NCBI GenBank assembly: GCA_964583975.1
Contig: CAZOXU010000011.1
Coordinates: 1 to 61,311 of the forward strand
DNA length: 61,311 nt
Reading direction: 5' to 3'
Source of the DNA: an uncultured Planctomycetales bacterium
GTDB lineage: Bacteria; Omnitrophota; Gorgyraeia; Zapsychrales; Fredricksoniimonadaceae
The position numbers and the translations under genes are program-made. Every line of letters begins with the position of its first letter. Position 1 is the first letter of the stretch. Of the stretch, positions 1-61,311 are shown piece after piece. The notes beneath the pieces are model-generated. The model saw nothing but the letters and a program-made list of their open reading frames with translations. It was not told the DNA's origin and did no database searches.

Positions 1-24
1 CCTTCAACCGCGATTCCACCACAT
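1..24. repeat. Terminal direct repeat, copy 1 (ccttcaaccgcgattccaccacat), identical to 61288..61311
   Basis: The first 24 nt of the window exactly equal the last 24 nt. Confidence 0.95.
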
Positions 25-616
25 ACGCTGTCCCTGCCTCGGCGTTCTCGTAAACCACCGCCTTCTCTGGAACGATCCACACCTTGTTAAAGGTATTCAC
101 TGGTATATTGGTTGTGTTGTACTTACTTTGGGCCTCTTCATAGATTCTCTTCCAAAACTTCTTTCCCACTTCATCTTCTGGATAAATGAGCGAGGCAGTG
201 ATTTGTTTGAGCATGTAGTCTTCTGCCAACAAATCTCGGCCCATCTCCGTTAAACCAAAGCTCTCTGGCACGATACGGTCTTTTTCGTAGGGAGATAGAT
301 TAACCCAGAGATCTCGCTCTGGCACGGTAAGGCTGGCGAGGAAATATTTGATGAGTCGATTGGCTTCATCATGTAGGGGCACAGCATGCTGTGCCCCTAC
401 ATCGCCCTGATCCATAATAAATTCAAATTGAAATGGATTATCCGGATGGACCTTGATGCCTTTCAAGATGGCTGGATTGACAGCGGGGCTGAGACTGACT
501 CGGACACCGGGTGTGGGTAAACGAATTTCCTGGGCCGAGGCAGGCAAAGGCCCAAAGGTATTAATTAAGAAAGCCACAAGGATGGCTATGTGGATTAATG
601 GGGTCGGTTTTCTCAT
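1..616 (-). CDS. 5' part (about 205 codons) of a giant-exoprotein family gene: signal peptide plus conserved N-terminal module; the ORF runs off the window start
   Basis: My own translation from the ATG at 616..614 reads MRKPTPLIHIAILVAFLINTFGPLPASAQEIRLPTPG...LWVNLSPYEKDRIVPE...NTFNKVWIVPEKAVVYENAEAGTAYVVESRLK. There is no stop before position 1. By eye it is clearly homologous to residues ~40-215 of the 33305..38098 protein. It is absent from the supplied ORF track because it has no stop in the window. Confidence 0.8.
   Translation of the reverse strand, partial: MRKPTPLIHIAILVAFLINTFGPLPASAQEIRLPTPGVRVSLSPAVNPAILKGIKVHPDNPFQFEFIMDQGDVGAQHAVPLHDEANRLIKYFLASLTVPERDLWVNLSPYEKDRIVPESFGLTEMGRDLLAEDYMLKQITASLIYPEDEVGKKFWKRIYEEAQSKYNTTNIPVNTFNKVWIVPEKAVVYENAEAGTAYVVESRLK
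373..400. repeat. 28-nt perfect GC-rich palindrome GTAGGGGCACAGCATGCTGTGCCCCTAC inside coding sequence
   Basis: The sequence is its own reverse complement. It shares the GTAGGGGC...GCCCCTAC termini with the 59-nt elements at 60939 and 61188. It encodes VGAQHAVPL in frame in a variable loop of the N-terminal module. Confidence 0.9.
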
Positions 617-15754: not shown

Positions 15755-15767
15755 ATAAAATCCTAAA

Positions 15768-33304: not shown

Positions 33305-36300
33305 TTATACTTTCGCTAATAACTCTTCCCTACCAGGCACCAAACCTAACAAAGGTCGCATATCAACAATAGGTGTAATATTGAGAATTACTGGACGAAC
33401 GCCAGAAAAATCACCCGCCTGGAACTGCTTAATCATCGCAGGGTCAAAACGGATATCAATCTTCTGACCATCTACATCTATCTTCATATTCTTAGAATTA
33501 AGGTCGATACCACCCTTAGTATCATCATTCTTAGTTGCCATAGCATTATCTGAGAATTTAATTGTTCCACTCGCATTAATCTCTATTTCAACATTGTCTA
33601 AACGGACGGTATCTCCTCTTGTTAATCCATATTTCACTCGAAAAGCTTCAAAGAAATCTTCCAAAGCAATATTTCGACCAGTTTTATTAATAATACTCAC
33701 ATGGTCTCCAATTTGGAAAACTCGAGGATTAATTTGAACACTACTAGGAATAGTATTAGTACCGACCATGGCTGCATCGCTATTAAATTTCCCATCCTTA
33801 ATTAAACCGCTTTGAATTAATTCCTCATCACTTCGCTTCAAAAAAGCTACACCATCATCAATATTTTTTGGCTCCTTCAAATCATGAATATCTTCCCCAG
33901 AGCTTACAAATGCGGCCTTGGTTGATGGCAATTGAGTCACATCCCCTGTTACAGCTTCAAGATAAAAATATCCATCTTTAAACCGCAAATTAAAAGGCAA
34001 TTGATTTTTTAAAATAGTTCTTAATTTATCTACCGCATACACCAGTCTAAAAGCATTGTAGGGCGCACCTTTTTTACCTGCTTCATCTAAAAGTCCAACC
34101 AAGGCAGGACTCGCCTTCACATTGGATGTTTCAATGAGAAAGCTTCTGCCAGTTTTTGTGTTTTTCAAAACATTGCCACCTTTTTGTTTGCTAGGATTAT
34201 TCACCAGCTCTCCGACAACACCATAGCCTCGATCTATTTGGGCCAAAGCAAAGGCAATTTTATCAATACTAACAACACTGTCTTTGGAAAATTTAGTCAG
34301 ATCATTAATGCGGTGACTAGAGATAACCTCAAAATCAGAAAATTCATCAATTAAAGCCCCAGTTATATATTTTCGTTGGCCTTGGCTATCTAAACGAAAT
34401 GCTTGGCCATTTTCTGCTAATTGCATGAAATTATGGCCATGTCCATAAGGCACAGTAGGGCTATTAGGATCAAATTCTAAAACTCCATTGTTGAATTTAA
34501 ATCCATGAAAAGTTGGTTGAACAACAAAGAATATATTGGCAGGAGAAAATCCATAGAAGTTATTTCTGATGAAATCCTCTAAAACGTCTTTTTCGATATC
34601 AGCATTCACATTTACAATTATTTTTTGTTGAGTCAAAACTTCCTGAATATTTCTTTTATTGTCTTTAGCGAGCTGCTCTATGGCCAAACGATAAGCCAAA
34701 ATTTGTCGAGGCCCCATTCCTAGGCGAAGTTTGGCATCTGTAGCGCTAGCCTTACCTAATTCTTGAGCTAATTCCCAAATGTCTAAACCATACATCGGAC
34801 CTCTCTTCAATCGAGTAGCAGCACCAGCAAAAATAAATTGTGGAATATAAGCTCCATTTAACAAAGTATTCTTTGCATGCTGTTGAAATTCTGCTGCTTG
34901 ATCAGAACTCAAAAAGCTAGATAAACTAACAACATCATCAGCAAGTTTTAAATCATCAGCTTTGGATTGAGCATATATATTTGATCCATCGACAATTTTA
35001 TTAATCTCCCCATCTAAACGTTTAACCTCATCTACATTATTGGTAGTCACAGCTTGATAATAGGCATCCAATAGCGGCTGAATACTTGCTTTAACCGATA
35101 TTACTTTATCAGACAAAGCTTTTTCTAAGCTTGCAATAGGTTTTCCAACCATAGCTCTATCTAAATTCCTTACGCGAAGAAAATCCCCAATATTAGTACC
35201 TCCTTCAGATTGCCATTGATAAAAATCTCCTAAAAGGGTATTTGCATTCAAATCATCTCTCTCTGCTATTTCAGTGATTCTTTCCCTAACATTTTGAGAA
35301 ACTTCCTCGATTGATTTTGGCCGGCCACTTGCTTTAGCTTCAACCGTTCTTTCTTGAACAAAGGCTTGAAGATTATTATTTCCTGTAGATTGTATGGCAC
35401 GAAATACTTCTAAAAGCTTTCCTCGTTGAAGACCTGCCCCTTCTGCTTGCTGCCATATTCCTTCCATTTCCAAATCTTTCATTTCACTAGCTGGTTGCAG
35501 TATTTTATTTCTCACAGTAGTAATTTTAGCCAAAACAAAACTCCTTAAATCAGCCGCACCCGCCATAGATTGTCTTCTTTGAAATTCTAAAAGTAAACGG
35601 CCTCGGCTTAACCCCACATTTTCTGCCTGTTGCCAAATATCTTCGGTAACAGAAGTATTCGGCACATCACCACCATCAATATCTCCTTCATTTAATAATC
35701 GACTAGCAACAGCAGCAGCGACTGCTGCACCAACAGCGGAAGCATTCTCAACCTTTACAATCTCTACATCTTCTGGAGTAAAACCTTCTAATTTTAAAGC
35801 TTCCTCAAATCCTTGTTTCACTAATTCATTCTTCCAATAGACGCTGCCATCAATCACAATTTTCTTTTTTCCAGAAACTGTCACATTTTTTAAAACCTGA
35901 GCAATGGCTGAACCTAATAGAAGTCCAGATCTCTTAAGTAAAGTCTGGCTAATATTCTGCATTTCAAATGCTTCAGCTTCTGAAACAGAGATATCCTCTC
36001 CTAAATACTCCTTAATCAAACTAATTAATTCCAACTTGTCATTGGCAATAGCTAGCTTACCTAATAATACGCTCTCTAAATCATCCCATTTTGAACTTTG
36101 TGCAATTTGGAGGTAATTCCCTTCTTTCGCAGACTTGGCAAGATTTCTAATATTCTCACGCAAAAGCTGAACTAGATATTTTCCTGAAATCATCTTCTCA
36201 AACATTTGTTTTCCCTGAGGCTCTGAATCTCTCAAAACGACTTCATCGCTTTCAGTTCGTAAACTTTCGGGAATATTATTGGTCGAACCTGCCTCTAAAT

Positions 36301-38098
36301 TAATGATATTGCCCTGCGCATCTGTGATTGAAAAATTAGAACCTGTCCCTAAAATGATTCCACTGACAGCTCCAGGAGAAGCTAATTGAGTGGCAATCGT
36401 ATCGTTTAAGACGCCAACAACCTCTAATTTTCTATTATTAAGAGCTGTTTCTAACAATGCTCCTGGATTTTTATTTTGAATATCTTGAAGTTCCCAACCT
36501 TTAGCGAGACGTAAAACTGTTGCACCTCCCATAGATTGATGTGACATAGGAAAAGCAAAAGACAAACCAATCTTATAATCTTTCGATGTTTCTAAAGGTA
36601 ATTCCTTAATTTTGGAAGCCACAAAACTAAAAACATCTGCACTAGTTCTCATTTTTAACTCTTCAGGGAATTTTGCGTCTATTTGTTGAATGGTCGTAGG
36701 TTTTTGACCTGGCTGCATCCTTACTAAAACAATCTTTAAATTTGTTCCACTAAAATCAACTCCAATATAATCTCCAGATTCTCTTCCATTCGCAGGTTTA
36801 AAATATGAATTTAAATAACTCACCCCACCCACACCGCTTTTGCCATTTAATGTTGTTATTAAATTTTCCGCAAAAACATTAGACACTCTTCTAATCGATT
36901 CCGTATCCAACTCAAAACTACTTCTCATAGCTAAATCTGTTTTAGATTTCGGAGTCGTGACTCTTATATTAAAAAGACGTCCTTTTGCAGGATTTACGAT
37001 AAATCTAGCTGCATCGTTATCCCTAGGATTACTCGTTTGAGCTAGATCTAATTTTCCAAGCACCCCACCAGAGAAATATTTTCTTGGGATTACCTGTCCA
37101 TTTTGTACGTCTTCCTTAATATAGTTAAATACACCCTTCTTATACGCCTTTAAGTATTCCTTATAAATCTTCTCCTTAATGGTCTTATCTGCAGTGTCCA
37201 CCCCATTAACCTTAGCTTTATTGCTGTAAACTTGATTAAGCAACGCATCTTTAAGATTTTTCTTATACCAAGCTGCTAAAATCATCGAGTGAAAAATTTG
37301 ACGGAGATTAGCAAAATTCTTTCCCGTATTAACTTCTTTTTCCAGCTCAGGAAGAACGATATCGCGAACGATCTGGGATCCTAAATTATTGGTATCTTGG
37401 GCAACCTGATTCACGGTTTGTTTCTGCGAGGCCAAATAATCTTCTTCCAACATCACCTTCAAATGGCTTGCCACAACGAATGCTGTGTTATCATGCACAA
37501 AAACTTTAGCCTTATCAGCCACAATCCATACCTTATTAAATGTATTTACTGGAATCTCAGTTGATCCATAGAGTGCCTGAGCTTTAGCGTAAACCTTGTT
37601 CCAAAACGCCTTGCCTAATTCTTTCTCGGGATAGATCAATGATGCTGTTAATTGCTTGAGGATATAGTCTTGGGCCAGCATGTCACGTCCCATATCGGTC
37701 TGTCCTAATTCATTAGGAATAATGCGGTCTTTTTCATAAGGTGAAAGGTTAACCCATAAATTTTCTTCGGGAATGGTTAACGAAGCTAAAAAATATTTGA
37801 TGAGCTTTTCAGATTCTGTTTTTAATTGCTCTTGACCGTTGGACAAACCTGAATTTCCTGTATCCACAATAAAATCAAATAAGATGGGGTTCTCTGGATG
37901 AACGCGCAAGCCCTTAACCATCATAGGCACATAATTCTCGGTTAAACTGATCATGGTACCTGGTATGGGAAGACCCAATTCTGCGGGAGATTGAGCTAGA
38001 GCTCGAACTGGAGAAAGAAAGCTAACAATAAAACATACATTAATAACAATTGTTAAACAACGAAAAGCAAACGATTCTTTTTGTCGAGGATTCAACAT
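33305..38098 (-). CDS. Giant modular exoprotein 1 (1,597 aa): signal peptide, shared N-module, hexokinase domain, 3x repeat, UDP-sugar pyrophosphorylase-like domain, small module, shared C-module
   Basis: Uninterrupted 4.8-kb ORF. Its N- and C-terminal modules are homologous to the 54890..61311 ORF. Domain motifs are listed in the sub-features and findings. Confidence 0.88.
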   Translation of the reverse strand: MLNPRQKESFAFRCLTIVINVCFIVSFLSPVRALAQSPAELGLPIPGTMISLTENYVPMMVKGLRVHPENPILFDFIVDTGNSGLSNGQEQLKTESEKLIKYFLASLTIPEENLWVNLSPYEKDRIIPNELGQTDMGRDMLAQDYILKQLTASLIYPEKELGKAFWNKVYAKAQALYGSTEIPVNTFNKVWIVADKAKVFVHDNTAFVVASHLKVMLEEDYLASQKQTVNQVAQDTNNLGSQIVRDIVLPELEKEVNTGKNFANLRQIFHSMILAAWYKKNLKDALLNQVYSNKAKVNGVDTADKTIKEKIYKEYLKAYKKGVFNYIKEDVQNGQVIPRKYFSGGVLGKLDLAQTSNPRDNDAARFIVNPAKGRLFNIRVTTPKSKTDLAMRSSFELDTESIRRVSNVFAENLITTLNGKSGVGGVSYLNSYFKPANGRESGDYIGVDFSGTNLKIVLVRMQPGQKPTTIQQIDAKFPEELKMRTSADVFSFVASKIKELPLETSKDYKIGLSFAFPMSHQSMGGATVLRLAKGWELQDIQNKNPGALLETALNNRKLEVVGVLNDTIATQLASPGAVSGIILGTGSNFSITDAQGNIINLEAGSTNNIPESLRTESDEVVLRDSEPQGKQMFEKMISGKYLVQLLRENIRNLAKSAKEGNYLQIAQSSKWDDLESVLLGKLAIANDKLELISLIKEYLGEDISVSEAEAFEMQNISQTLLKRSGLLLGSAIAQVLKNVTVSGKKKIVIDGSVYWKNELVKQGFEEALKLEGFTPEDVEIVKVENASAVGAAVAAAVASRLLNEGDIDGGDVPNTSVTEDIWQQAENVGLSRGRLLLEFQRRQSMAGAADLRSFVLAKITTVRNKILQPASEMKDLEMEGIWQQAEGAGLQRGKLLEVFRAIQSTGNNNLQAFVQERTVEAKASGRPKSIEEVSQNVRERITEIAERDDLNANTLLGDFYQWQSEGGTNIGDFLRVRNLDRAMVGKPIASLEKALSDKVISVKASIQPLLDAYYQAVTTNNVDEVKRLDGEINKIVDGSNIYAQSKADDLKLADDVVSLSSFLSSDQAAEFQQHAKNTLLNGAYIPQFIFAGAATRLKRGPMYGLDIWELAQELGKASATDAKLRLGMGPRQILAYRLAIEQLAKDNKRNIQEVLTQQKIIVNVNADIEKDVLEDFIRNNFYGFSPANIFFVVQPTFHGFKFNNGVLEFDPNSPTVPYGHGHNFMQLAENGQAFRLDSQGQRKYITGALIDEFSDFEVISSHRINDLTKFSKDSVVSIDKIAFALAQIDRGYGVVGELVNNPSKQKGGNVLKNTKTGRSFLIETSNVKASPALVGLLDEAGKKGAPYNAFRLVYAVDKLRTILKNQLPFNLRFKDGYFYLEAVTGDVTQLPSTKAAFVSSGEDIHDLKEPKNIDDGVAFLKRSDEELIQSGLIKDGKFNSDAAMVGTNTIPSSVQINPRVFQIGDHVSIINKTGRNIALEDFFEAFRVKYGLTRGDTVRLDNVEIEINASGTIKFSDNAMATKNDDTKGGIDLNSKNMKIDVDGQKIDIRFDPAMIKQFQAGDFSGVRPVILNITPIVDMRPLLGLVPGREELLAKV
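33899..34921 (-). other. UDPGP/UAP-like nucleotide-sugar pyrophosphorylase domain within giant protein 1
   Basis: FAGAATRLKRGPMYG (compare AGGQGTRLG), VPYGHGHNF (compare P-x-G-x-G) and NPSKQKGGNVL (the K-GG region). Residues ~1060-1400. Confidence 0.55.
35699..36901 (-). other. Hexokinase-family (actin-fold sugar kinase) domain within giant protein 1
   Basis: Ordered motifs IGVDFSGTNLKIVLV, GLSFAFP, LAKGW, VLNDTIAT, ILGTGSN, NLEAGS, QMFEKMISGKYL, IDGSVY and ASAVGAAVAAAVA (residues ~400-800). Confidence 0.85.
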
Positions 38099-45558: not shown

Positions 45559-45972
45559 ATGCATCAAACGGTTGCCATTTTATTAAGCCTCTGTATCGTC
45601 TTTAATGTTTACACGTTGGGCTCGCAAGTCATCCAACATCAACAACAGCCTTCCAATATGCAATTTCACAATTTGGGAGATCAATTTAAAGAAATCGCGC
45701 CGCTTTTTAATAAAATATCCAAAGCAGGTTATTATACGGATAAAGATACTAATATACCGGTCGTAATTGCTCAGTTTGAGCAAGCCCAATATCACCTTGC
45801 CCCTACTATTTTGGACCTTAATAATACTGATTACCCTTTAGTTATTTTTGACTGCACCTTACCAGCGATTGCTTTAACTAAAATGCGAGAACTAGGGCTT
45901 CAACCTATTAAAGCCAATAAATTTGGAACCATTTTGGCCGTAAACCCAAAATTTAGTGAATTAAAACCATGA
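45559..45972 (+). CDS. Hypothetical secreted protein
   Basis: 137 aa with an N-terminal signal-like segment (VAILLSLCIVFNVYTLGS). Its end overlaps the downstream start (ATGA). I recognise no family. Confidence 0.55.
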   Translation: MHQTVAILLSLCIVFNVYTLGSQVIQHQQQPSNMQFHNLGDQFKEIAPLFNKISKAGYYTDKDTNIPVVIAQFEQAQYHLAPTILDLNNTDYPLVIFDCTLPAIALTKMRELGLQPIKANKFGTILAVNPKFSELKP

Positions 45973-53565: not shown

Positions 53566-54043
53566 AAATCCCGTCTTTAATCTCTTTGAGGACTATTTTG
53601 CGCTCCGAAGGTGTGAGGTAATCCAAAATCAACTTGCCTTGCAAATGGTCGTTTTCATGCTGAAAAACCTTGGCTAAAAGTCCGGAAACTTTGGCCCTCA
53701 CTACTTCATTGTTTTCATCGATAAATTCAACTTCTAAATCCTTAGCTCTTTTGACGTTCACATGAAGATTAGGAATGCTTAAACACCCTTCTTCAGATTC
53801 TTCCGAGCCAGAGGACTTTATGATTTTAGGATTAATAATAGCCAAAGCATCCTTACCCGTATCTACGACAAAAATCTGTTCATTAATGCCCACTTGAGGG
53901 GCTGCCAACCCGATTCCTTTTTGCGCACGCATCGTATCAAACATCGATGCAATCAAAATACGTTCAGCAGGACCAACTTCTTTGACCGGCTTAGATTTGG
54001 CCCTCAGACAAGAATCTCCGTATAAACGAATTTTCAGCTGCAT
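53525..54043 (-). CDS. def: Peptide deformylase
   Basis: GIGLAAPQVG, EGCLS and HENDHL motifs. Confidence 0.92.
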   Translation of the reverse strand: MQLKIRLYGDSCLRAKSKPVKEVGPAERILIASMFDTMRAQKGIGLAAPQVGINEQIFVVDTGKDALAIINPKIIKSSGSEESEEGCLSIPNLHVNVKRAKDLEVEFIDENNEVVRAKVSGLLAKVFQHENDHLQGKLILDYLTPSERKIVLKEIKDGIYVGKDQDNEHDRA

Positions 54044-54048
54044 AGGGC

Positions 54049-54402
54049 TTACACTTTTTTTAATTTGTTATTGGAATCCAGATAAACAACCTTGGGTTTC
54101 AAGGTCTTGGCTTCTTTTTGGGTACAAATAGCGTAACTTAAAATGATAAGCTTGTCTCCCACATACCCTTGACGGGCGGCAGGGCCATTAAGGCATATCT
54201 CTCCCGAACCAGCTCGACCTGCAATGACATAGGTTTCCAAGCGATTGCCATTATTCACATTAAGCACATGGACTTTTTCGCCAGGAATCATACCGACTGC
54301 TTTAATAAGGTTTGAATCAATGGTAATGCTGCCTTCATAATAGAGTTCTGCAGCGGTCAATGTGGCTTGGCCAATTTTAGATTTTAGCACTTCAATTTGC
54401 AT
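54049..54402 (-). CDS. panD: Aspartate 1-decarboxylase
   Basis: LKSKIGQATLTAAELYYEGSITID with the G-S self-processing site. 117 aa. Confidence 0.92.
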   Translation of the reverse strand: MQIEVLKSKIGQATLTAAELYYEGSITIDSNLIKAVGMIPGEKVHVLNVNNGNRLETYVIAGRAGSGEICLNGPAARQGYVGDKLIILSYAICTQKEAKTLKPKVVYLDSNNKLKKV

Positions 54403-54468
54403 TACAAACTCCTAAATGAGTCCTGCAACTTAACAGGACGAATTTATCCCGAGCTATCGGCGAGGGAT

Positions 54469-54789
54469 CTATAAATGCGGATTTAATTTCGCTAATAATT
54501 TATCCTTAGGCATGGCCCCCACAAACTGGTCTACTGGCTCGCCTTTTTTGAACACAATCAGGGTTGGAATCGACATAACGTTAAATTGACCTGCCAAATC
54601 AGGCGATTCATCGACATTAAGCTTGGCAACCTTCAATTTACCCGCCAATTCGGTCGCGACTTGGTCAAGAATGGGGCTAAGCATCTTGCAAGGTCCACAC
54701 CATTCAGCCCAAAAATCCACCAAAACTGGGATCGAGCTGTCTAAAACCTCAGTTTTAAAGTTATTTTGATCTAAGTGTACTGCTGCCAT
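54469..54789 (-). CDS. trxA: Thioredoxin
   Basis: WAEWCGPCK active site. 106 aa. Confidence 0.93.
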
Positions 54790-54838
54790 AGTGTTACTCC
54801 TTTGATAAGAGGATCTGAAAGATCCAAATTGAGCTCGT

Positions 54839-54867
54839 ATTATATAGGCTCATTAATTATATATCAA
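54839..54867 (-). promoter_or_regulatory. Sigma70-type promoter for trxA
   Basis: The minus strand reads TTGATA (54867..54862), a 17-nt spacer, then TATAAT (54844..54839). The ~45-nt leader contains a GGATC-tgaaa-GATCC hairpin and an AAGGAG RBS. Confidence 0.5.
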
Positions 54868-54889
54868 ATAATATTATAAAGGGTTGGAG

Positions 54890-57800
54890 TTATGATGCCG
54901 CTGCCAGCTGGGTGACTGGTGTCTGGGTACTGATCCCTAAAAACTTCCTGAGATCAGTCATGGGCTGGATATTGATAATCACGGGATAAAAACCTGGGGC
55001 GTTTTGCAGTTGGGCAAGCTGTGCTGGGTCTAAATTAAACTTTATACCTCCATTAGCATTTTGGGTTTGTAGAAATTTGTCAGAGGTAAGGTCAATACCA
55101 CCTTTTTTGATCATTGCGCTATCTCTGACTAATGAACCTTTCTTAAATAAACTTGAAGCATTAGTCATAGCCGCATCTTCTGCCTTAGACATATCTAAAA
55201 TCTTCGGAAGGATTTCAACACCCAAAGACAATATTCCTGACAGATGCGCGCTAGGCGATCCTGGAATACCTTTTCCTTGAAAATAACTCGGCGGCTTTCC
55301 TAAAGAGCCGAAAAGTCTCTGACTATCTTCGGCAGGCGTCAACTCATCATCTACGACAGTGGCAAGCAAAACATTCTGACCATCCTTGGATGGCACTGCA
55401 GAAGCCAATTGATCCAAGTTTAAATCTCTCATAACTGAATCGACATCTTCTGGAACGAGCCCTTTTTGACGGAATAATTCTTGAATACCCGCATATCGAT
55501 CTCCCTGACTCCAAAGAAGGTGAGAATAATTAACGATAGGGACTATTGTGAAAAGATTTCGCACTAATGGATCTATCAGGTAGGTGCTTGTTGCCACACT
55601 ACCCGTAATGCTTTGCCCTGTTACAGATATTCTAGAGGGATCTATTTCTGGACGATCAGCAAGCCATCGTACAGAAACCAAGGTATCGGCAATCGATTGC
55701 ATAATAAAAGTTTTAAACTTTTCTGCATCAAAATCCAAAGCCACATATCGTTGTACAGAATTCATTCCTTGTGTTCCAGCAGCTGAACGTTTAGCGTATA
55801 AAGGCATTCCTACTTCCAATACCGCAACGCCTTTGCTAGCTAAATAAATAGAAATAAGACGGGCCAGCGTATCTTGTTCATAAAAACTACACAAAACGAC
55901 TCCGGGTAAAAGTTTTCCATCAGTTGTTTTAGGAAGGAAATATCTCGCATAAACATGTTCTGAATTAGGAAAGGCGGATTTATTAAAGGCAGATCGATAG
56001 GTTAGTTCTTGAATAGAAAACGGCTGAGCTTCAGGTGGAGATGTCTTTAATCTTTCTACCATTTGAAGCAGATCAGCAAGCAAAGGAGAATTTTTCATCA
56101 ATTTCTTTAACTGACCGAGAATATAATTAAGAGCTGCATCATCAGTTAAGGCCAAAATTTCTTCTTGTGTCAATGAGCGCAATTGATAATCAACGGTGTT
56201 AATATTTCCCTGAGGATCTCGATCTATCTTTAAATTCGTATCAGTTGGAAGAAATGCGATGTTCTGAGATAGATTTAAACCTGTTAGTTGAGATAATTCT
56301 TCTACAACATCTCTACCTTGTGCCATCGCAGCATCTTGCTTAGGATCGCTCTCCGCTTCCCAATTACCTTTAAAATCTGGAACGACTTCAAAATCATAAT
56401 CAAAAATGTCAAAAGTAATGGTTGATTCAATTAATACCGGTACTGGAAACTCTCCTTCGCGAGAGGGCGCCAACCATTGTAAATCAAAATTTCCAAGAAC
56501 ATCTTGGTCTAAATGAATACCCACCTTATTCAAACGTGCGACAAGAAGTTGAAAATCATGCCGAATGAGTTCATAAACATACGTTTGAAATTCTTCCCAT
56601 CTATTAGGATCTATTCCATAGGCCGCTAAGACATCACGATACCTTTCATCTTCTTTCAACAAGTCATAAGCTTGTTCACGTCCAGAATTATTGGAAAAGA
56701 ACGAAGAACTACCGATACGGGTACTCTGAATCCAGGATGGAGATCTAGAAAAATCTGGATCAGGTTCAAACTTACCGGTTTTTAAATTTCCTCGAAATAA
56801 AAAACGACTTTCGTAAGATTTTCCGTCTAATTTAAAAGCGTTAAAAACAGATTCCATTCCTCCAGAATCATAAATTCTTTCATTCAAAACAACTAATTTC
56901 CATAAACCATCTAAAATCTCAACGGCATCGGTTGTTGAGGTATCTAATGTAAAATGCATACTGTTTAAATCTGGGTCTCTATAAGGAGTAATTTTGTAGT
57001 TATCAAAATACTTAATGACTTTCTCTTGATAAGGATCTTGAAATGAAGGTGAATTGGTATAAGAAAATGTGATGGTCAGATTAGAATCTTTTCCTTTATG
57101 AATATAAAAAATTCCTCTTCCATAGGAACCCGTGTTGGGTTTGAAAATAACTGGCAAAGAAATCTCACCAGACACAATTTGTTGGGCTACTTCTCTAAAA
57201 TTAGCGACATCTCTTGGGTCTGTTAAAGCTTGTAAATAGGATTCGTCTGAAAAACGCATTTCGTCTAATTCTTGAATCACATCAGAATCTCTTTTAAAAG
57301 CAACAAACCAATCGGGCTGACGAACCTTACCGCCCTTAAGTAATTCCCTCATCCCCCACTTACTAGCCAAAAGTCGCTGTATATCAAGAATACTAACCTT
57401 GGCGCTTTGCATTGCTGCATCAACTTTGTAAACTTCTCGCTTCATAGAATCATAAAAAACCGGCTCAGCATTACTCAACTTCTTCCTTCTCCAATTGATG
57501 ATTCCCACTTGAGGGTCAACCATAGATTGGACACCTAGATTAACCATAAGGGCACTCGCTTGAATGCTATGGACAAAAGCTACAACGATGATCTTCCTTC
57601 CTCCATTAAATTTCTTTCTTAATTTCATCCTAGCTTTAAAATCATCCAATCCTTTCTTAGTTCGAATCAGAAGATTTAAATAACTTTCCGAAGGAGAATG
57701 ACCTGAAATACTAGGTAATGTTGCAGTCGCATCCATGCCTCTATTAAAACGATATAAGAACTCTCGCACACCTCTTCCTTCTTTTTGAATATCTGCTACC

Positions 57801-60800
57801 CCTTTTTCATCGAGCAATCCCAAGGATATCTCATCTAAAAAGCTTTCCACATTTGGTTCAATCTTATGCCCTGTTTTATCTTTAACTAGATCCAGAAAAT
57901 CTTGGGCAGTTTGTTGAGTACGATCTTTGGAACTAGTTATAACAACCACATCTGCATTAGATTCAATGTCAGGCCTTAGTTTAGAAAACAAAATCTTTGC
58001 CCCCGCTAGTGACTGTTCCTTACCTTTTAGAGTTAATAAATTTCTTCTTCCTGGAATTAAAATACCTGCATTAGAGTATGTTTGCCCATGTCTTTCCCAA
58101 TAAAAACTAAAATCATCTTGCGAAATTGAAACAAGAGGATCTATTCCATTGAATTTAATTTGACCAGATCCATTAACTAAAACCTTCTCATCTAACTCTT
58201 TTAAGGGTTTCCATTCCGATGGTCTGAGTAAATAAAATCGTGAGATTCCTTTAAAATTTCTCAATACCACCTCTCCTAATTTAATTTCATTAGGATTAAT
58301 TTTCGCAAATCGAATACGCAGCACCGCACCGTCTTCATCTCGCAAAACATCCCTTCTGTCTAAAAGACTCACCTCCGCTTCAGGATGAATTTTCTGAGCA
58401 TAAGAACGCATACTTAATAGACCTTCACCTTTTCCTCCAATTCTGTGATTACCAGCTAACTTTTGAGCTAATTTCTCTTCAGTAGTTTCAGCCTCTTTGA
58501 TAGATAATCCATTGTTTACTACATCAATATTTACAAAACCATCTTTTTCATAAACATAAAAATCAATTTTTAAACTTTTGTTGTCTGGTATTTTACCAAT
58601 GTCTATTCCATGTATAAAAGCATCCGCAGAATTTTCTATGGCATGAATAAATATAGATTCTAACAAAGAAACCACAAGTCTTTGATGACCGTCTTTATGG
58701 ACGACCAGCATTTTCTGGGATCCAAAATCTGAACTCTGATTTCCTAAAATAGAGGCAATTTTGTGATCCATAGGAAGGACGATTTCTTCTAATCTTCCCC
58801 ATACTCTTTGTAGTCCTTCTTTTTTAGAAAGGCTGGTTAATATTGGGAAATCTTCTTTAGAAAATTCGATCGTTCCTAAAGAAAATAACTTTTCCGCCTC
58901 CATCGCTGCATCTTTTGTGGTCGATCTTAATAAGGATTCCAAATCTTGTCTTACGCTCTTATCTTTAGGATCAAGCTCTATTGCTTTTCGAAAGGCCGCT
59001 TCTGCCCTCTTAAAATCATGTAACTTGGTTAGCACGCGTCCAAGACTTTTATAGGCATTTGTATACCGGGGGCTCTCTTCTATTGCTTTTAAATAAGCCT
59101 CCTCCGCTCCTTCTAAGTCACCTTTATTTTCCAATAAAAATCCTAAATTGTAACGTAGCCAAGAATTTCTTGAATCAAGCTTTATGCCTGTTCGAAAAGA
59201 CGCTTCAGCTCGTGCTAAATCACCCTTCTTCATCAATAGAAGTCCAAGATTGTTATAAGCGATTTGGTATTTAGGATTTATCTTTAATGCTGTTAAATAT
59301 GCTGTTTCAGCTCCTGTTAAATCACCTTTACTGTCTAACAAATCCCCTAAAGAAACGTATGCACTCATATCTTTAGGATCAAGCTCTATTTCTTTATGAT
59401 GCGCAGCCTCTGCTCCTGCCAAGTCTCCTTTATGCATCAGAAAAATTCCTAAATTCTGATAAAAACTTCCAATTATTCCTAATTGCCACGGTAAAATCCT
59501 AACAACCTGCAAATCATTCTTTCCTTTAAAATCAAATGTTAAACCTTCATTAGAGATATCTTTTTCGATTGGCAATTTCACAATAAAACTAAAATCTAAT
59601 TCTCCCGAAGGCCTCAACTCCTCAGAAGGTTCTGCGATATAGTATCGTCCATCAGATAACCTAACTAATATAAAGACATGATCTATTTCTGAAACCAGGT
59701 AAACCTTCTTAATTCCAATTGCATCCAAGTACAATGCCATTAAAGCACTTCTGCCGACACAATTAATTTCCTTAGTAAGTCGTATCCGAATTGGAGAGGC
59801 TTCATTTAAAGCAGAATAATCTTTATCTGTCCACCCGTGCATTTTGATAATTAACCGCATAATTTTATTGATGGCTTGGATTTCAAGCTCTGCACCAGCT
59901 AAAGGCGATCTCTCTCTTGCCTTTTGTATTTCTGCCTTTAATTGCTCTGTATCAATCTGATCAAAACGCTTAGCTTTCCTTTGAAACCCAAACGACTCTA
60001 ATGAAGAGAGCTTTGGTGACTCATTCTTAGATCTTGCTAAATCTTCTTTTAATAAATGCATCCCTCTTAAATAAGTTTGATTTTCTATATCAATCTGGAC
60101 ATGGCGTACGGTCAATTGAATGGCTTTGGTCATAAGAGTCTGCAGCTCATCAAGTTTCTGTGAATCTTTTAACCCAAGCCATTCTTTAATCTCTCTTTCT
60201 TGCTCCAAATCTAGGGGCTTTTGATTTGAAGAAACATGATCCACATGAAATCCATCCGGGATTTTCAAGTCACTATTGTCTTGAGCCAAAATGTATCCTA
60301 AAGCATCAAATAGACCAATAACCTGTTCATGTTCTTGAGTTTTTTGATTCTCATATCTCTGAGCCAAATACCTTGCAGCGTCTCTAAACTTTCCAGAAAT
60401 TCTAGGCAAGGTTCGTTCCTTATCGCTCAAAGGAAGATCCCTAATCTTTTGTGTTAATTCTATAGTTTCTTTAACGTTTATGTCTTCTGGCAACTTGAAA
60501 TGATAAAAAATTTCCCCATTGGTATTCGCAAGCTTTTCAGGTACTAGAAAATCAACCGCTTCTTGACCTCGCGGAACAAATTGCACAACAATATGATCTG
60601 TTAATGGCAGCCAGGCGTATTGATCCTTCTGTCCTTTCTGCGAGCCCGCAAAACGCTTGCGTTCTTGCTCAGTTTCCCATACTGGTTTACTTAAAACTTG
60701 ATCAAGTTTAACTTCTATTCTCATTTTCCCTGCAAGACTAGTCATGGCCGAATCACCAATCACAGATGGGTCTTGACTAATTCTCATAGCTTGAGAAGGT

Positions 60801-61311
60801 TGCAACAACATTCCTCCAGAGAAATATTTGCGAGGCACAGGCTGCTGGGTTATAGGATCAGGCTCTTCTTTGATGTAGTTGTACACGCCTTTTTTGAATG
60901 CTTGGAGGTACCGTTGATAAATTGATTCAACATCCTCGGTAGGGGCAGGCCCCTGTGCCTGCCCGGCTTGAGGGCGACCACGGGGGGTCGCCCCTACGAT
61001 TTTATTCTTATCCGTATACACCCGAGCCAGGATGCTGTCCTTTATTTTCTTCTTGTACCACGTAGCTAGGATTAAAGAATTGTAAACTTGTCTAAGTTGG
61101 GCGAAGTTTTGTCCTTCATTGACTTCGCGGGTGAGTTCGGGGATGACGATTTCACGGATGATGTTATTTCCCAATATATTGGTATCCGTAGGGGCAGGCC
61201 CCTGTGCCTGCCCTTCTTGAGGGCGACCACGGGGGGTCGCCCCTACACCGTTTTTGGATTCCGATAAATAATCTGCCTCTAGCATCACCTTCAACCGCGA
61301 TTCCACCACAT
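54890..61311 (-). CDS. Giant modular exoprotein 2 (>2,139 aa, 5' end off the window edge and apparently continued at 616..1): shared N-module, unknown region, transglutaminase-like Cys protease, TPR, GHKL ATPase-like, histidine phosphatase, ATP-grasp-like, alpha/beta hydrolase-like, shared C-module
   Basis: Uninterrupted 6.4-kb ORF open at the window end. The first codon in the track is an edge GTG, not a real start. Its N- and C-terminal modules are homologous to the 33305..38098 protein. Confidence 0.88.
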   Translation of the reverse strand, partial: VVESRLKVMLEADYLSESKNGVGATPRGRPQEGQAQGPAPTDTNILGNNIIREIVIPELTREVNEGQNFAQLRQVYNSLILATWYKKKIKDSILARVYTDKNKIVGATPRGRPQAGQAQGPAPTEDVESIYQRYLQAFKKGVYNYIKEEPDPITQQPVPRKYFSGGMLLQPSQAMRISQDPSVIGDSAMTSLAGKMRIEVKLDQVLSKPVWETEQERKRFAGSQKGQKDQYAWLPLTDHIVVQFVPRGQEAVDFLVPEKLANTNGEIFYHFKLPEDINVKETIELTQKIRDLPLSDKERTLPRISGKFRDAARYLAQRYENQKTQEHEQVIGLFDALGYILAQDNSDLKIPDGFHVDHVSSNQKPLDLEQEREIKEWLGLKDSQKLDELQTLMTKAIQLTVRHVQIDIENQTYLRGMHLLKEDLARSKNESPKLSSLESFGFQRKAKRFDQIDTEQLKAEIQKARERSPLAGAELEIQAINKIMRLIIKMHGWTDKDYSALNEASPIRIRLTKEINCVGRSALMALYLDAIGIKKVYLVSEIDHVFILVRLSDGRYYIAEPSEELRPSGELDFSFIVKLPIEKDISNEGLTFDFKGKNDLQVVRILPWQLGIIGSFYQNLGIFLMHKGDLAGAEAAHHKEIELDPKDMSAYVSLGDLLDSKGDLTGAETAYLTALKINPKYQIAYNNLGLLLMKKGDLARAEASFRTGIKLDSRNSWLRYNLGFLLENKGDLEGAEEAYLKAIEESPRYTNAYKSLGRVLTKLHDFKRAEAAFRKAIELDPKDKSVRQDLESLLRSTTKDAAMEAEKLFSLGTIEFSKEDFPILTSLSKKEGLQRVWGRLEEIVLPMDHKIASILGNQSSDFGSQKMLVVHKDGHQRLVVSLLESIFIHAIENSADAFIHGIDIGKIPDNKSLKIDFYVYEKDGFVNIDVVNNGLSIKEAETTEEKLAQKLAGNHRIGGKGEGLLSMRSYAQKIHPEAEVSLLDRRDVLRDEDGAVLRIRFAKINPNEIKLGEVVLRNFKGISRFYLLRPSEWKPLKELDEKVLVNGSGQIKFNGIDPLVSISQDDFSFYWERHGQTYSNAGILIPGRRNLLTLKGKEQSLAGAKILFSKLRPDIESNADVVVITSSKDRTQQTAQDFLDLVKDKTGHKIEPNVESFLDEISLGLLDEKGVADIQKEGRGVREFLYRFNRGMDATATLPSISGHSPSESYLNLLIRTKKGLDDFKARMKLRKKFNGGRKIIVVAFVHSIQASALMVNLGVQSMVDPQVGIINWRRKKLSNAEPVFYDSMKREVYKVDAAMQSAKVSILDIQRLLASKWGMRELLKGGKVRQPDWFVAFKRDSDVIQELDEMRFSDESYLQALTDPRDVANFREVAQQIVSGEISLPVIFKPNTGSYGRGIFYIHKGKDSNLTITFSYTNSPSFQDPYQEKVIKYFDNYKITPYRDPDLNSMHFTLDTSTTDAVEILDGLWKLVVLNERIYDSGGMESVFNAFKLDGKSYESRFLFRGNLKTGKFEPDPDFSRSPSWIQSTRIGSSSFFSNNSGREQAYDLLKEDERYRDVLAAYGIDPNRWEEFQTYVYELIRHDFQLLVARLNKVGIHLDQDVLGNFDLQWLAPSREGEFPVPVLIESTITFDIFDYDFEVVPDFKGNWEAESDPKQDAAMAQGRDVVEELSQLTGLNLSQNIAFLPTDTNLKIDRDPQGNINTVDYQLRSLTQEEILALTDDAALNYILGQLKKLMKNSPLLADLLQMVERLKTSPPEAQPFSIQELTYRSAFNKSAFPNSEHVYARYFLPKTTDGKLLPGVVLCSFYEQDTLARLISIYLASKGVAVLEVGMPLYAKRSAAGTQGMNSVQRYVALDFDAEKFKTFIMQSIADTLVSVRWLADRPEIDPSRISVTGQSITGSVATSTYLIDPLVRNLFTIVPIVNYSHLLWSQGDRYAGIQELFRQKGLVPEDVDSVMRDLNLDQLASAVPSKDGQNVLLATVVDDELTPAEDSQRLFGSLGKPPSYFQGKGIPGSPSAHLSGILSLGVEILPKILDMSKAEDAAMTNASSLFKKGSLVRDSAMIKKGGIDLTSDKFLQTQNANGGIKFNLDPAQLAQLQNAPGFYPVIINIQPMTDLRKFLGISTQTPVTQLAAAS
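55310..55942 (-). other. Alpha/beta-hydrolase-like domain in giant protein 2
   Basis: LLPGVVLCSFYEQ..., the IDPSRISVTGQSITGSVA nucleophile-elbow-like segment, and the later VVDDELTP. Confidence 0.42.
56390..57172 (-). other. ATP-grasp-like domain in giant protein 2
   Basis: LPVIFKPNTGSYGRGIFYI (K-P-x-x-G-S-x-G-x-GI) followed by a ~250-aa alpha/beta region. Weak, motif-level only. Confidence 0.4.
57515..58117 (-). other. Histidine phosphatase (phosphoglycerate-mutase-like) domain in giant protein 2
   Basis: The FYWERHGQTYSN RHG motif, with a downstream IVVAFVHSIQASAL second-His region. Confidence 0.5.
58385..58657 (-). other. GHKL (HATPase_c-like) ATP-binding domain in giant protein 2
   Basis: N-box-like IHAIENSADA, G1-like VVNNGLSI and G2-like GGKGEGLLSM, in the canonical order. 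Confidence 0.45.
58940..59482 (-). other. Five to six tandem TPR repeats in giant protein 2
   Basis: Recurrent 34-aa units: GDLAGAEAAHHKEIELDPKD, GDLTGAETAYLTALKINPKY, GDLARAEASFRTGIKLDSRN, GDLEGAEEAYLKAIEESPRY, HDFKRAEAAFRKAIELDPKD. Confidence 0.85.
59636..59830 (-). other. Transglutaminase-like / papain-fold cysteine protease core in giant protein 2
   Basis: INCVGRSALMALYLDAIGI (Cys517) ... IDHVFILVRLSDGRYYIAEP (His544, then an acidic residue). This is the typical C-H-D/E spacing of transglutaminase-like domains. Confidence 0.5.
60939..60997. repeat. 59-nt GC-rich double-hairpin element, copy A, in frame in giant gene 2
   Basis: GTAGGGGCAGGCCCCTGTGCCTGCCCGGCTTGAGGGCGACCACGGGGGGTCGCCCCTAC. 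Stems GGGCAGGC/GCCTGCCC and GGGCGACC/GGTCGCCC, with terminal inverted repeats GTAGGGG/CCCCTAC. It encodes VGATPRGRPQAGQAQGPAPT. Confidence 0.92.
61188..61246. repeat. 59-nt GC-rich double-hairpin element, copy B, in frame in giant gene 2
   Basis: Identical to copy A except for 2 nt in the linker (CCCTTCTTGAGG versus CCCGGCTTGAGG). It encodes VGATPRGRPQEGQAQGPAPT. Confidence 0.92.
61288..61311. repeat. Terminal direct repeat, copy 2, identical to 1..24
   Basis: The last 24 nt of the window exactly equal the first 24 nt. Confidence 0.95.

What the first reader, a model, noticed from the sequence alone, without database searches (positions are those of the whole stretch)
54890..61311. Second giant paralogue strings six unrelated enzyme or interaction domains between the same N- and C-terminal modules
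Between the shared end modules, this ORF of more than 2,139 aa carries a series of domains I recognise only at motif level. They are a transglutaminase-like Cys protease core (C517/H544), 5-6 TPR repeats, a GHKL ATPase-like domain (IENSADA / NNGLSI / GGKGEGL), a histidine phosphatase (WERHGQTYSN plus a VHS second His), an ATP-grasp-like module (VIFKPNTGSYGRGI) and an alpha/beta-hydrolase-like module (ISVTGQSITGS). None of the central domains is shared with giant protein 1. The architecture is therefore constant ends with a swappable enzymatic payload, which is the logic of polymorphic toxin or effector families, although no known toxin or secretion marker is visible here. This is the best candidate for an undescribed system in the window.
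Basis: partly seen in the sequence, partly recalled or inferred. Interest (0 to 1): 0.85.

Follow-up and report, generated by a model that had tools for sequence, protein, structure and literature searches.

The report
Swappable enzyme cassettes between constant protein ends
This giant gene belongs to a large, apparently undescribed Omnitrophota protein family that strings interchangeable enzyme cassettes, separated by a four-residue motif, between a constant exported N-terminal domain and a constant C-terminal tail. What the family does is not yet known.

Summary
The ORF is real. It lies on the minus strand at 54890-61311, runs off the window end, and a 4.5-kb stretch is 100% identical in an independent assembly. 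It shares only its N-terminal and C-terminal modules with giant protein 1.

Domain calls:
- HMMs confirm TPR, histidine phosphatase and alpha/beta-hydrolase.
- GHKL gets moderate profile support.
- ATP-grasp support is weak.
- The transglutaminase-like call is unsupported.

"Constant ends, swappable payload" holds. The N-module has a Sec-type signal peptide plus about 330 aa, with no Pfam, NCBIfam or structural match. It occurs in at least 1,428 proteins, almost all labelled Omnitrophota, several per genome and often in tandem. 48 of 57 complete members end in the about 65-aa C-module. Only 10 of 1,653 payload pairs are similar.

In a syntenic relative, the positional orthologue of giant protein 1 keeps both ends at 76% identity, but its payload is unrelated.

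New here: payloads are divided by a peptide motif, [DN]xAM, about 12-fold enriched, and cassette homology between members starts and stops at that motif.

Payloads are housekeeping-type metabolic and signalling enzymes, not toxins. No toxin, immunity or secretion marker was found.

Most likely this is an exported modular enzyme carrier. Its localisation, any processing and its function are inferred, not shown.

The parts
54890..61311 (-). Giant ORF 2. It has 2,139 codons inside the window and is open at the window edge. If the 24-nt end overlap is real, it is 2,337 aa.
   Evidence: 100% identical independent contig over 53984-58532
60812..61311 (-). N-module, C-terminal half. This is residues 199-364 in full-length (2,337-aa) numbering, which is used in all rows below. 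It ends in PRKYFSGG.
   Evidence: 46% identical to giant protein 1; family alignment A1
1..616 (-). N-module residues 1-205 with a signal peptide (MRKPTPLIHIAILVAFLINTFGPLPASA|QE). Either the missing start of ORF 2 or a third paralogue cut by the window edge.
61188..61246 (-). In-frame palindromic insert, GTAG-headed and REP-like, in an N-module loop. It encodes VGATPRGRPQEGQAQGPAPT.
   Evidence: (repeat family D2, 95% identical copies)
60939..60997 (-). Second copy of the same in-frame palindromic insert.
60743..60754 (-). [DN]xAM motif 1 (DSAM, residues 384-387). It ends the N-module and linker.
58913..60742 (-). Cassette A (residues 388-997): about 300 aa unassigned, then the Cys/His motif region, then TPR.
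59624..59767 (-). Proposed transglutaminase-like Cys/His core (residues 713-760). Motif-level call only.
   Evidence: no HMM or PDB sequence hit; pairwise E 0.069
58922..59488 (-). TPR array, five 34-aa repeats plus a capping helix.
   Evidence: Pfam TPR_1 E 4e-27; 102-nt DNA periodicity (family D1)
58901..58912 (-). [DN]xAM motif 2 (DAAM, residues 998-1001).
57422..58900 (-). Cassette B (residues 1002-1494): GHKL-like domain plus histidine phosphatase. The whole cassette is conserved as one unit in P0336 (39% identical).
58295..58711 (-). GHKL-like ATPase region (HAxENxxDA, NG, RxGGKGxGL).
   Evidence: hhalign probability 58%, E 1e-4 against the window's own HATPase_c; PDB histidine kinase E 0.064
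57575..58093 (-). Histidine phosphatase, branch 1.
   Evidence: Pfam His_Phos_1 E 5e-7, above the cut-off
57410..57421 (-). [DN]xAM motif 3 (DAAM, residues 1495-1498).
56336..57409 (-). Cassette C (residues 1499-1856): an uncharacterised domain family, possibly ATP-grasp-like. It recurs at 53-55% identity in family members P0332 and P0333.
56324..56335 (-). [DN]xAM motif 4 (DAAM, residues 1857-1860).
55178..56323 (-). Cassette D (residues 1861-2242): alpha/beta-hydrolase. The AXE1 match is at 55334-55966. It recurs at 39-52% identity in P0334, P0335 and P0338.
55166..55177 (-). [DN]xAM motif 5 (DAAM, residues 2243-2246).
55112..55123 (-). [DN]xAM motif 6 (DSAM, residues 2261-2264), just before GGIDL.
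54890..55111 (-). C-module (GGIDL ... DPAQ ... PVIINIQP ... FLG) plus the stop codon.
33305..38098 (-). Giant protein 1, the paralogue: same N- and C-modules, a hexokinase payload, and [DN]xAM at residues 388, 980, 1441 and 1517.

Best explanation
ORF 2 belongs to a large family found almost only in Omnitrophota. I read the family as modular, Sec-exported multi-enzyme carrier proteins.

Each member has four elements:
1. A cleavable-looking signal peptide.
2. A highly conserved N-terminal domain of about 330 aa with no known fold, ending in PRKYFSGG.
3. One to many payload cassettes separated by the peptide motif [DN]xAM.
4. A conserved, probably non-globular C-terminal element of about 65 aa (GGIDL ... 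DPAM ... PVIxxIxP ... LLGL).

Shown:
- The two ends are coupled and constant.
- The cassettes are the units of exchange, and homology blocks begin and end at the motif.
- Payloads are replaced in place between related genomes.
- The motif is selected at the protein level.

Inferred:
- The ends serve export, anchoring or delivery, and the cassettes are cargo.
- [DN]xAM is a recognition or processing site.
- Many cargo enzymes need ATP or UTP (hexokinase, PGK, UDPGP), so they would be useful only where nucleotides are available. For these putatively host-dependent or predatory nanobacteria, that points to a host or prey cell, or to a surface-bound reaction zone.

In ORF 2 the cargo is a TPR cassette, a GHKL-like plus histidine-phosphatase cassette, a possible ATP-grasp cassette and an esterase-type hydrolase cassette.
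For: Family size and taxonomy:
- 1,428 proteins at E<=1e-5, with the top 120 at 50-78% identity.
- At least 569 confirmed loci in reference genomes, with up to 5 among the best 80 from a single genome.
- 98 family ORFs in 62 of 80 loci, often in tandem.

Coupled ends: 48 of 57 complete ORFs carry the C-module at the extreme C-terminus.

New domains: no Pfam or NCBIfam hit for either module. The N-module model has pLDDT 73 and its best Foldseek matches are E 1.6 (PDB) and 0.5 (BFVD).

Signal peptides are read directly from the sequences: a K/R-rich start, about 15 hydrophobic residues, then AxA.

Payload diversity: 10 of 1,653 pairs are similar.

Replacement in place: seven upstream genes are 56-87% identical between the window and L001. 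The family gene there matches g1 residues 1-365 and 1527-1597 at 76%, with nothing in between.

Cassette reuse: exhaustive HMMER finds cassettes B, C and D separately in other proteins. Block ends coincide with [DN]xAM, for example g2 1494-1861 against P0333 545-915, with motifs at 1495 and 1857 in g2 and at 546 and 911 in P0333.

The motif:
- 90 observed against 7.5 expected in payloads, z=30; it is the top-ranked gapped tripeptide with a meaningful expected count.
- 137 observed against 8.9 expected when C-modules are included.
- Synonymous sites are free and there is no upstream nucleotide signal.
- It is absent from 29 non-family long proteins that share cassettes.

Context in the literature: exported multi-enzyme giant proteins are already reported in this phylum.
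Against: - No experiment or proteomic datum shows export, localisation or cleavage.
- ATP-dependent glycolytic enzymes are unexpected outside the cytoplasm, and some cassettes look fully functional and housekeeping-like. One PGI scores E 4e-199 and is 50-56% identical to enterobacterial and Bacteroidota PGIs.
- No secretion, protease or other partner gene is conserved next to family genes.
- The C-module model has low confidence (pLDDT 68, pTM 0.22, mostly coil), so its nature is unknown.
- Many payloads have no recognisable domain.
- I found no close orthologue of the ORF 2 payload as a whole.
Confidence: 0.55

Rival explanations
1. Membrane-tethered cytoplasmic metabolons. The N-terminal hydrophobic segment acts as an uncleaved anchor, or is not used for export. 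The family arrays the cell's own sugar-phosphate, nucleotide-sugar and signalling enzymes on a scaffold formed by the N- and C-modules.
For: - Payloads are classic cytoplasmic, nucleotide-dependent enzymes with strong scores: PGI 4e-199, PGK 1e-107, hexokinase 1e-32.
- g1 and its positional orthologue both carry sugar-phosphate enzymes: g1 a hexokinase, the orthologue a PGM/PMM domain plus, by eye only, a UDPGP-like motif.
- Family genes sit among housekeeping genes.
Against: - The N-termini look like canonical cleavable Sec signals: positive start, hydrophobic core, AxA. With a positively charged N-terminus the bulk of the protein would be outside.
- A metabolon would not be expected to swap its payload between close relatives, nor to show 0.6% payload relatedness among paralogues.
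- The one PGI cassette I examined has its best 80 matches, apart from its own contig, in other phyla, which suggests capture rather than a resident housekeeping gene.
Confidence: 0.2
2. A polyprotein precursor. The long chain is cut at [DN]xAM, either by a trans-acting protease or by the N-module itself, for example through a Ser/Lys dyad formed by its invariant Ser and Lys residues. This releases free enzymes and leaves the N- and C-modules behind. It is a specific version of the main explanation.
For: - The motif sits exactly at cassette borders and is family-specific.
- The N-module has invariant S119, S153, K148, K189 and K279, and no invariant His or Cys.
- Processing of Omnitrophota giant proteins has been proposed by others.
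Against: - There is no protease homology and no structural match for the N-module.
- The motif also occurs inside the C-module as DPAM. That fits a binding motif as well as a cleavage site.
- No cleavage data exist.
Confidence: 0.15
3. A polymorphic toxin or effector family in the classical sense, with the payload acting as toxin domains paired with immunity proteins.
For: Constant and variable parts, many paralogues, and fast payload turnover.
Against: - No toxin domain appears among the Pfam hits.
- The variable region is internal.
- No conserved small downstream gene that could be an immunity gene was found.
- Downstream of ORF 2 are thioredoxin, PanD and Def.
- No PADLOC hit except a spurious match inside the TPR array.
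Confidence: 0.05
4. An artefact: a chimeric assembly, a fused pseudogene, or a mis-joined contig that creates an apparent giant ORF.
For: - The window ends share 24 nt inside a multi-copy gene family, so at least the contig ends are affected by repeats.
- Some family members are split by frameshifts.
Against: - A 6.4-kb frame open without a stop.
- An independent assembly is 100% identical over 4.5 kb.
- The same grammar appears in dozens of complete ORFs from unrelated assemblies.
Confidence: 0.03

Closest known systems
MARTX toxins (multifunctional autoprocessing RTX toxins of Vibrio and relatives); comparison from my own knowledge
   Same: - Very large proteins with conserved N- and C-terminal regions flanking an array of unrelated effector domains.
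- The effector array differs between strains through recombination.
- The effectors are separated by linkers that serve as processing sites.
   Different: - MARTX ends are glycine-rich repeats exported by a type I system without a Sec signal, and a cysteine protease domain in cis does the cutting.
- Here there is a Sec-type signal, an N-domain with no known fold, a 65-aa C-element, no RTX repeats and no CPD.
- The punctuation motif is [DN]xAM.
- The payloads are metabolic and signalling enzymes, not cytotoxic effectors.
Giant multi-enzyme proteins of Omnitrophota ('Archaeovorins' and multi-enzyme long proteins; bioRxiv 10.1101/2023.11.21.568195 and 10.64898/2026.06.07.730766)
   Same: - Same phylum.
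- Signal peptides.
- Polypeptides tiled with sugar-metabolism domains (PGM/PMM, hexokinase, PPDK) and signalling domains (HATPase, receiver, HD, GNAT).
- Very little sequence relatedness between members.
   Different: [quoted passage not shown]
- This family is 0.4-3.7 kaa or more, with its own N- and C-modules and the [DN]xAM punctuation.
- The 29 non-family long proteins that share cassettes with ORF 2 lack the modules and the motif.
- Neither paper mentions these modules.
Polymorphic toxin systems (Rhs, CDI and related); comparison from my own knowledge
   Same: A constant trafficking part, a variable part, many paralogues, and displacement of the variable part by recombination.
   Different: - There, the variable toxin is at the extreme C-terminus and is followed by a cognate immunity gene.
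- Here the variable part is internal, is made of several cassettes, consists of housekeeping-type enzymes, and has no conserved small partner gene nearby.
Type IX secretion cargo (Sec signal plus conserved C-terminal sorting domain); comparison from my own knowledge
   Same: An N-terminal Sec signal combined with a conserved element at the extreme C-terminus of otherwise unrelated proteins.
   Different: - T9SS C-terminal domains are folded beta-sandwiches found in Bacteroidota.
- The C-module here is predicted to be mostly coil at low confidence.
- It comes together with a 330-aa conserved N-domain that T9SS cargo lacks.

Membership tests
Omnitrophota N/C-module family (defined here) | N-module of about 330 aa after a signal peptide, ending in PRKYFSGG | tested here: met
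   The part of ORF 2 inside the window aligns to g1 at 46% identity and to family members at 47-60%. The first 205 aa are present only if the left end of the window belongs to the same gene.
Omnitrophota N/C-module family (defined here) | C-module (GGIDL ... PVIxxIxP ... LLG) at the extreme C-terminus | tested here: met
   Residues 2265-2337 (full-length numbering); 42% identical to g1; present in 48 of 57 complete members.
Omnitrophota N/C-module family (defined here) | Payload punctuated by [DN]xAM at cassette borders | tested here: met
   Six motifs in ORF 2. Homology blocks end at them. Family-wide enrichment has z=30.
TPR repeats (Pfam clan) | Tandem 34-aa helix-turn-helix repeats matching the TPR HMMs | tested here: met
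   TPR_1 E 4e-27, TPR_2 E 9e-25.
Histidine phosphatase superfamily, branch 1 | HMM match above the curated cut-off, including the RHG motif | tested here: met
   His_Phos_1 30 bits against 21.7, E 5e-7. The ERHGQT motif is present. Catalytic activity was not tested.
Alpha/beta-hydrolase (AXE1-like esterase) | HMM match above the cut-off, with the nucleophile elbow GxSxG | tested here: met
   AXE1 32.8 bits against 21, E 4e-8. GQSITG is present. The Asp and His of the triad were not mapped.
GHKL ATPase (Bergerat fold) | N box, G1 box and G2 box in order, with a fold or HMM match | tested here: inconclusive
   No Pfam hit. hhalign against the window's own HATPase_c gives probability 58%, E 1e-4, with the three boxes aligned. 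The G1 box is degenerate (NG instead of DxGxG). No structure model was made.
ATP-grasp | HMM or fold match to the ATP-grasp domain | tested here: inconclusive
   ATPgrasp_YheCD E 0.019, below the cut-off. 2 of 31 alignment members (30 of them homologues) score E about 0.003. A profile search against the PDB finds nothing.
Transglutaminase-like cysteine protease | Cys-His-Asp core matching Transglut_core or a related HMM or fold | tested here: not met
   No Pfam or PDB sequence hit even at E<=5-10. Only a 31-aa pairwise match at E 0.069. The Cys/His spacing is suggestive but unverified.
Polymorphic toxin systems | C-terminal toxin domain with an adjacent immunity gene | tested here: not met
   No toxin Pfam. 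The C-terminus is the constant module. No conserved neighbour gene. The downstream genes are trx, panD and def.
MARTX toxins | Glycine-rich RTX-type repeat regions at both ends and a cysteine protease domain | tested here: not met
   No RTX, CPD or related Pfam hit. The N-module is a novel alpha/beta domain.
Type IX secretion cargo | Folded beta-sandwich C-terminal domain and T9SS genes in the genome | tested here: inconclusive
   The C-module model is mostly coil with pLDDT 68. The genome-wide gene content could not be examined.

The most novel reading that the evidence does not exclude
The signal peptide plus N-module, the [DN]xAM punctuation and the C-module together form the grammar of a previously undescribed protein-delivery or surface-display system of Omnitrophota. 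In this reading, enzymes captured from other bacteria are loaded as interchangeable cargo cassettes. The tetrapeptide is the site at which cargo is recognised or released. The purpose would be to manipulate the metabolism of a host or prey cell.
Probability: 0.3. Interest if true: 0.85.

Novelty: new variant of a known kind. Interest (0 to 1): 0.72.

Why it matters
Omnitrophota are uncultured nanobacteria thought to live on or prey upon other microbes. How they interact with hosts is an open question, and attention so far has gone to their very largest genes.

This family is smaller and far more numerous. Its anatomy is cleaner: two conserved end modules with no match in Pfam or NCBIfam, the N-module also matching no known structure; a four-residue punctuation mark; and cassettes that can be seen being exchanged between related genomes.

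That makes several questions directly testable. Is the protein exported? Is it cut at the motif? Are the cassettes active? Where do they end up?

If the ends prove to be a portable export or delivery signal with a defined cargo junction, the family would be a new secretion or display principle and a natural scaffold for enzyme fusions. If instead the proteins stay inside the cell, they would be an unusual way of organising central metabolism.

Tried and rejected
1. Searching the whole ORF 2 payload against the 5.8-billion-protein set returned only TPR proteins. It showed only that no close full-length orthologue surfaced.
2. Single-sequence PDB searches of the unassigned segments gave nothing useful. 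Profile searches were marginal.
3. The C-module structure prediction came out low-confidence and mostly coil, so I did not run a fold search on it.
4. I considered that D-x-A-M might reflect internal ribosome-binding sites and start codons, or a DNA recombination signal. I rejected this: there is no purine-rich signal upstream, and the synonymous positions of the Asp and Ala codons vary freely.
5. A guilt-by-association search for a conserved partner gene around 80 family loci found none beyond the family itself.
6. Attempts to settle the 24-nt end overlap all failed:
   - The junction sequence and the 24-mer are absent from the metagenome collection, and the 24-mer also from the viral and genome collections.
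   - The neighbouring gene is not on record.
7. No relatives of cassette A's non-TPR part were found in reference genomes.
8. My recollection that the last cassette of giant protein 1 is UDP-glucose-pyrophosphorylase-like was not supported by Pfam, so I dropped it.
9. I rejected a true 61-kb plasmid or phage as the likelier reading:
   - The window carries lpxA/C/D/I, bamA, dnaB, prs, glmU, L25, mlaEF and lipA.
   - GC skew is monotonic across the window.
   - Seven genes are syntenic with a 272-kb contig of a related genome.
10. The short 'C-module only' proteins are probably fragments: most sit on contigs of about 1 kb, and the one whose context I read (P0329) is the tail of a frameshift-split family gene.
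Full report
**What is at the coordinates**

A minus-strand frame is open from the right edge of the window to a stop at 54890-54892, 2,139 codons. A contig assembled independently from run SRR12487046 is 100% identical to window 53984-58532. It covers the last 1,213 residues and the downstream thioredoxin and panD genes.

The genes after the ORF are housekeeping genes: thioredoxin, panD, def and lipA. The rest of the window carries lpxA/C/D/I, bamA, dnaB, ribosomal protein L25, prs, glmU and mlaEF.

Homologues of the end modules are almost all labelled Omnitrophota, so the window is a chromosomal stretch of an Omnitrophota bacterium.

**Shared ends**

Against giant protein 1 (33305-38098, minus strand, 1,597 aa), the ORF shares an N-terminal block (46% identity over 168 aa, E 3e-37) and a C-terminal block (42% over 60 aa, E 4e-7). 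It shares nothing else; the next best match has E 0.38.

**The window ends**

The first and last 24 nt of the window are identical. The left end (616-1, minus strand) encodes residues 1-205 of an N-module, with a signal peptide. Joined through the overlap, the two pieces give a seamless 2,337-aa protein. I use that numbering below; it equals the truncated numbering plus 198.

In favour of one gene:
- Both halves have the same nearest relatives.
- The only three GTAGGGGC...GCCCCTAC palindromes in the window lie in these two pieces.

Against a real 61-kb circle:
- The gene content is chromosomal.
- GC skew is monotonic across the window.
- Seven genes are syntenic with a 272-kb contig of a relative.

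I could not resolve this. Either the contig closed falsely on a repeated gene family, or two paralogues share the 24-mer.

**Domain calls for ORF 2**

- Confirmed by HMM: TPR (E 4e-27, five repeats plus a cap), histidine phosphatase branch 1 (E 5e-7, above the curated cut-off), and an AXE1-type alpha/beta-hydrolase (E 4e-8, above the cut-off).
- GHKL-like segment: no Pfam hit. A profile of its homologues aligns with the genuine HATPase_c domain of the window's own histidine kinase, with the N, G1 and G2 boxes in register (probability 58%, E 1e-4). A PDB histidine kinase appears at E 0.064. I rate this moderate support.
- ATP-grasp call: rests on E 0.019 for ORF 2 and about 0.003 for two homologues. 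The domain belongs to a sizeable uncharacterised family with invariant Lys, Glu, Arg and Asp residues. I rate this weak.
- Transglutaminase-like core: no HMM or PDB sequence support. There is only a 31-residue match at E 0.069. I rate this unsupported.

**The family**

The N-module of giant protein 1 finds 1,428 proteins at E<=1e-5, the best 120 at 50-78% identity. Degenerate-pattern scanning of one genome per species finds at least 569 confirmed loci, several per genome.

The module has no Pfam or NCBIfam model. Its AlphaFold model (pLDDT 73) has no match in the PDB (best E 1.6) or in BFVD (best E 0.5).

All N-termini I read have a positively charged start, a hydrophobic core of about 15 residues and an AxA site. 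This is the usual look of a cleavable Sec signal; that reading rests on established knowledge and was not tested.

In 80 fetched loci:
- 57 family ORFs are complete. They are 431-2,819 aa long, median 1,349. Truncated ones exceed 3,700 aa.
- 48 of the 57 end in the C-module.
- 98 family ORFs sit in 62 loci, often in tandem.
- No other gene is a regular neighbour.

The C-module alone models poorly (pLDDT 68, mostly coil).

**Payloads**

Only 10 of 1,653 payload pairs show any similarity at E<1e-5.

Recognisable domains are UDPGP, PGM/PMM, receiver, PGI (E 4e-199), PGK (E 1e-107), NAPRTase, PPDK, transketolase/E1, HD, NUDIX, GNAT, HEAT and TPR. Also found are NAD-epimerase, URO-D and HPr, and hexokinase in giant protein 1. 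Many payloads have no Pfam domain at all.

The one PGI cassette I examined is 50-56% identical to PGIs of Gammaproteobacteria, Bacteroidota and several other phyla. Apart from its own contig, no other Omnitrophota record is among its best 80 matches. This suggests capture from outside the phylum.

**Replacement in place**

Locus L001, from Omnitrophota MAG_AAO_H125.54, has the same seven upstream genes as giant protein 1, at 56-87% amino-acid identity.

Its family gene matches giant protein 1 at 76% over residues 1-365 and 76% over residues 1527-1597. The roughly 1,160 residues in between (about 1,780 in L001) have no detectable similarity. The break points lie within about 20 residues of the first and about 10 residues of the last [DN]xAM.

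ORF 2 itself has no orthologue at the corresponding place. That genome has three smaller family genes and four other genes upstream of thioredoxin instead.

**The motif**

D-x-A-M occurs 90 times in payloads against 7.5 expected (z=30). Among gapped tripeptides with a meaningful expected count it ranks first, and N-x-A-M ranks second. Including C-modules, the count is 137 against 8.9 +/- 3.0.

There is no conserved nucleotide signal upstream, and the synonymous positions vary. The motif is therefore a peptide signal, not a ribosome-binding site or a DNA site.

In ORF 2 the motifs at residues 384, 998, 1495, 1857, 2243 and 2261 delimit four cassettes.

An exhaustive HMMER search with residues 1002-2200 found 337 relatives, and they match cassette by cassette:
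- Cassette C at 53-55% identity in family members P0332 and P0333.
- Cassette D at 39-52% in P0334, P0335 and P0338.
- The phosphatase in P0395.
- All of cassette B in P0336, which has a different N-terminus.

Where the partner is a family member, the homology blocks start or stop at the motif in both proteins in most cases. For example, ORF 2 residues 1494-1861 match P0333 residues 545-915, with motifs at 1495 and 1857 in ORF 2 and at 546 and 911 in P0333.

Of 30 long proteins that share cassettes, 29 lack the end modules and show little or no excess of the motif (0-3 copies each). The thirtieth, P0395, is a family member with eight copies. The motif therefore belongs to this family's grammar. 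A DPAM also sits inside the C-module.

**Interpretation**

Shown:
- Coupled constant ends.
- Cassettes as the units of exchange.
- Fast payload turnover.
- A protein-level junction motif.

Inferred:
- The ends serve export, anchoring or delivery.
- The motif is a recognition or cleavage site.
- The nucleotide-dependent cargo acts where nucleotides exist, plausibly in or on a partner cell. This fits the host-dependent or predatory lifestyle proposed for the phylum (PMC10066038, read).

The main rival is a membrane-tethered cytoplasmic enzyme scaffold. The housekeeping nature of the cargo favours it. The signal peptides and the payload turnover disfavour it.

The classical polymorphic-toxin reading finds no support: no toxin domains, no conserved partner gene that could be an immunity gene, no PADLOC hits, and an internal rather than terminal variable region.

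**Relation to what is known**

Two preprints describe very long, signal-peptide-bearing, multi-enzyme proteins in Omnitrophota with a similar domain repertoire. Neither mentions these end modules or the motif.

The logic resembles MARTX toxins: constant ends, a variable effector array, and linkers that are processed. None of the MARTX defining features is present.

I therefore class this as a new variant of a known kind, built on two protein modules that match no Pfam or NCBIfam model.

Noticed in passing
window 1-24 and 61288-61311: The first and last 24 nt of the window are identical, inside the coding sequence of a multi-copy gene family. The contig looks circular (61,287 bp), but it carries chromosomal housekeeping genes and has a monotonic GC skew. 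It is more likely a false closure or a break at a repeat.
   Followed up: partly
window 373-400, 60939-60997, 61188-61246: GTAG-headed, GC-rich palindromes (REP-like) are inserted in frame in N-module loops. They add about 7-20 residues, for example VGATPRGRPQEGQAQGPAPT. These are the only three such elements in the window. Another family member, P0025, has different repeat-derived inserts in the same loops.
   Followed up: partly
window 35147-35710 (giant protein 1, residues about 797-984): By eye, there are three copies of a helical unit of about 45 aa (consensus roughly WQQAExxGLxRGxLLxxFxxxQ...LxxFV) between the hexokinase and the next [DN]xAM. A similar unit occurs in family member P0001. 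There is no Pfam match.
   Followed up: no
L058 3724-14215 (JBGAJA010000003.1): The closest related genome has three family genes in tandem (1,104, 1,033 and 945 aa) where the window has ORF 2. A further N-module starts right after the orthologue of giant protein 1 in L001 (16674-16973).
   Followed up: partly
L082 6095-8270 (also L083, L084): A family gene is split into three consecutive ORFs (209, 425 and 89 aa, the last being a bare C-module). The 89-aa product is on 14 contigs, and the same split is seen in the three loci read, each from a different sample. It is a stable frameshifted pseudogene or a recoding site.
   Followed up: no
proteins P0371, P0372, P0380, P0385, P0397: Long proteins (3-7 kaa) that share cassettes with ORF 2 have a different conserved leader, roughly K-x-I-A-x-x-V-V-C-x-F-L-x-N-x-x-A-W-A-x-P. 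This hints at a second carrier family that draws on the same cassette pool.
   Followed up: no
window 38258-39826 (minus strand): The TPR protein just upstream of giant protein 1 is only 56% identical to its syntenic counterpart, whereas the six genes beyond it are 80-87% identical.
   Followed up: no
window 46200-46264: A near-perfect 24-nt inverted repeat (96% complementary, 17-nt spacer) lies inside the plus-strand ORF 45969-47261. That ORF is one of only a handful of plus-strand ORFs in the window (5 of 49 at >=150 aa) and has no Pfam match.
   Followed up: no
window 15684-15754 (minus strand): A tRNA gene (Rfam, 54.5 bits) overlaps the mechanically called TTG start of the glmU-like ORF 14418-15755. 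The real start of that gene must lie further downstream.
   Followed up: no
L027 4645-6552: A phosphoglucose isomerase cassette bounded by [DN]xAM is 50-56% identical to PGIs of Vibrio, Escherichia, Chitinophaga and other non-Omnitrophota. No other Omnitrophota is among its best 80 matches. It looks like a captured foreign housekeeping gene.
   Followed up: partly
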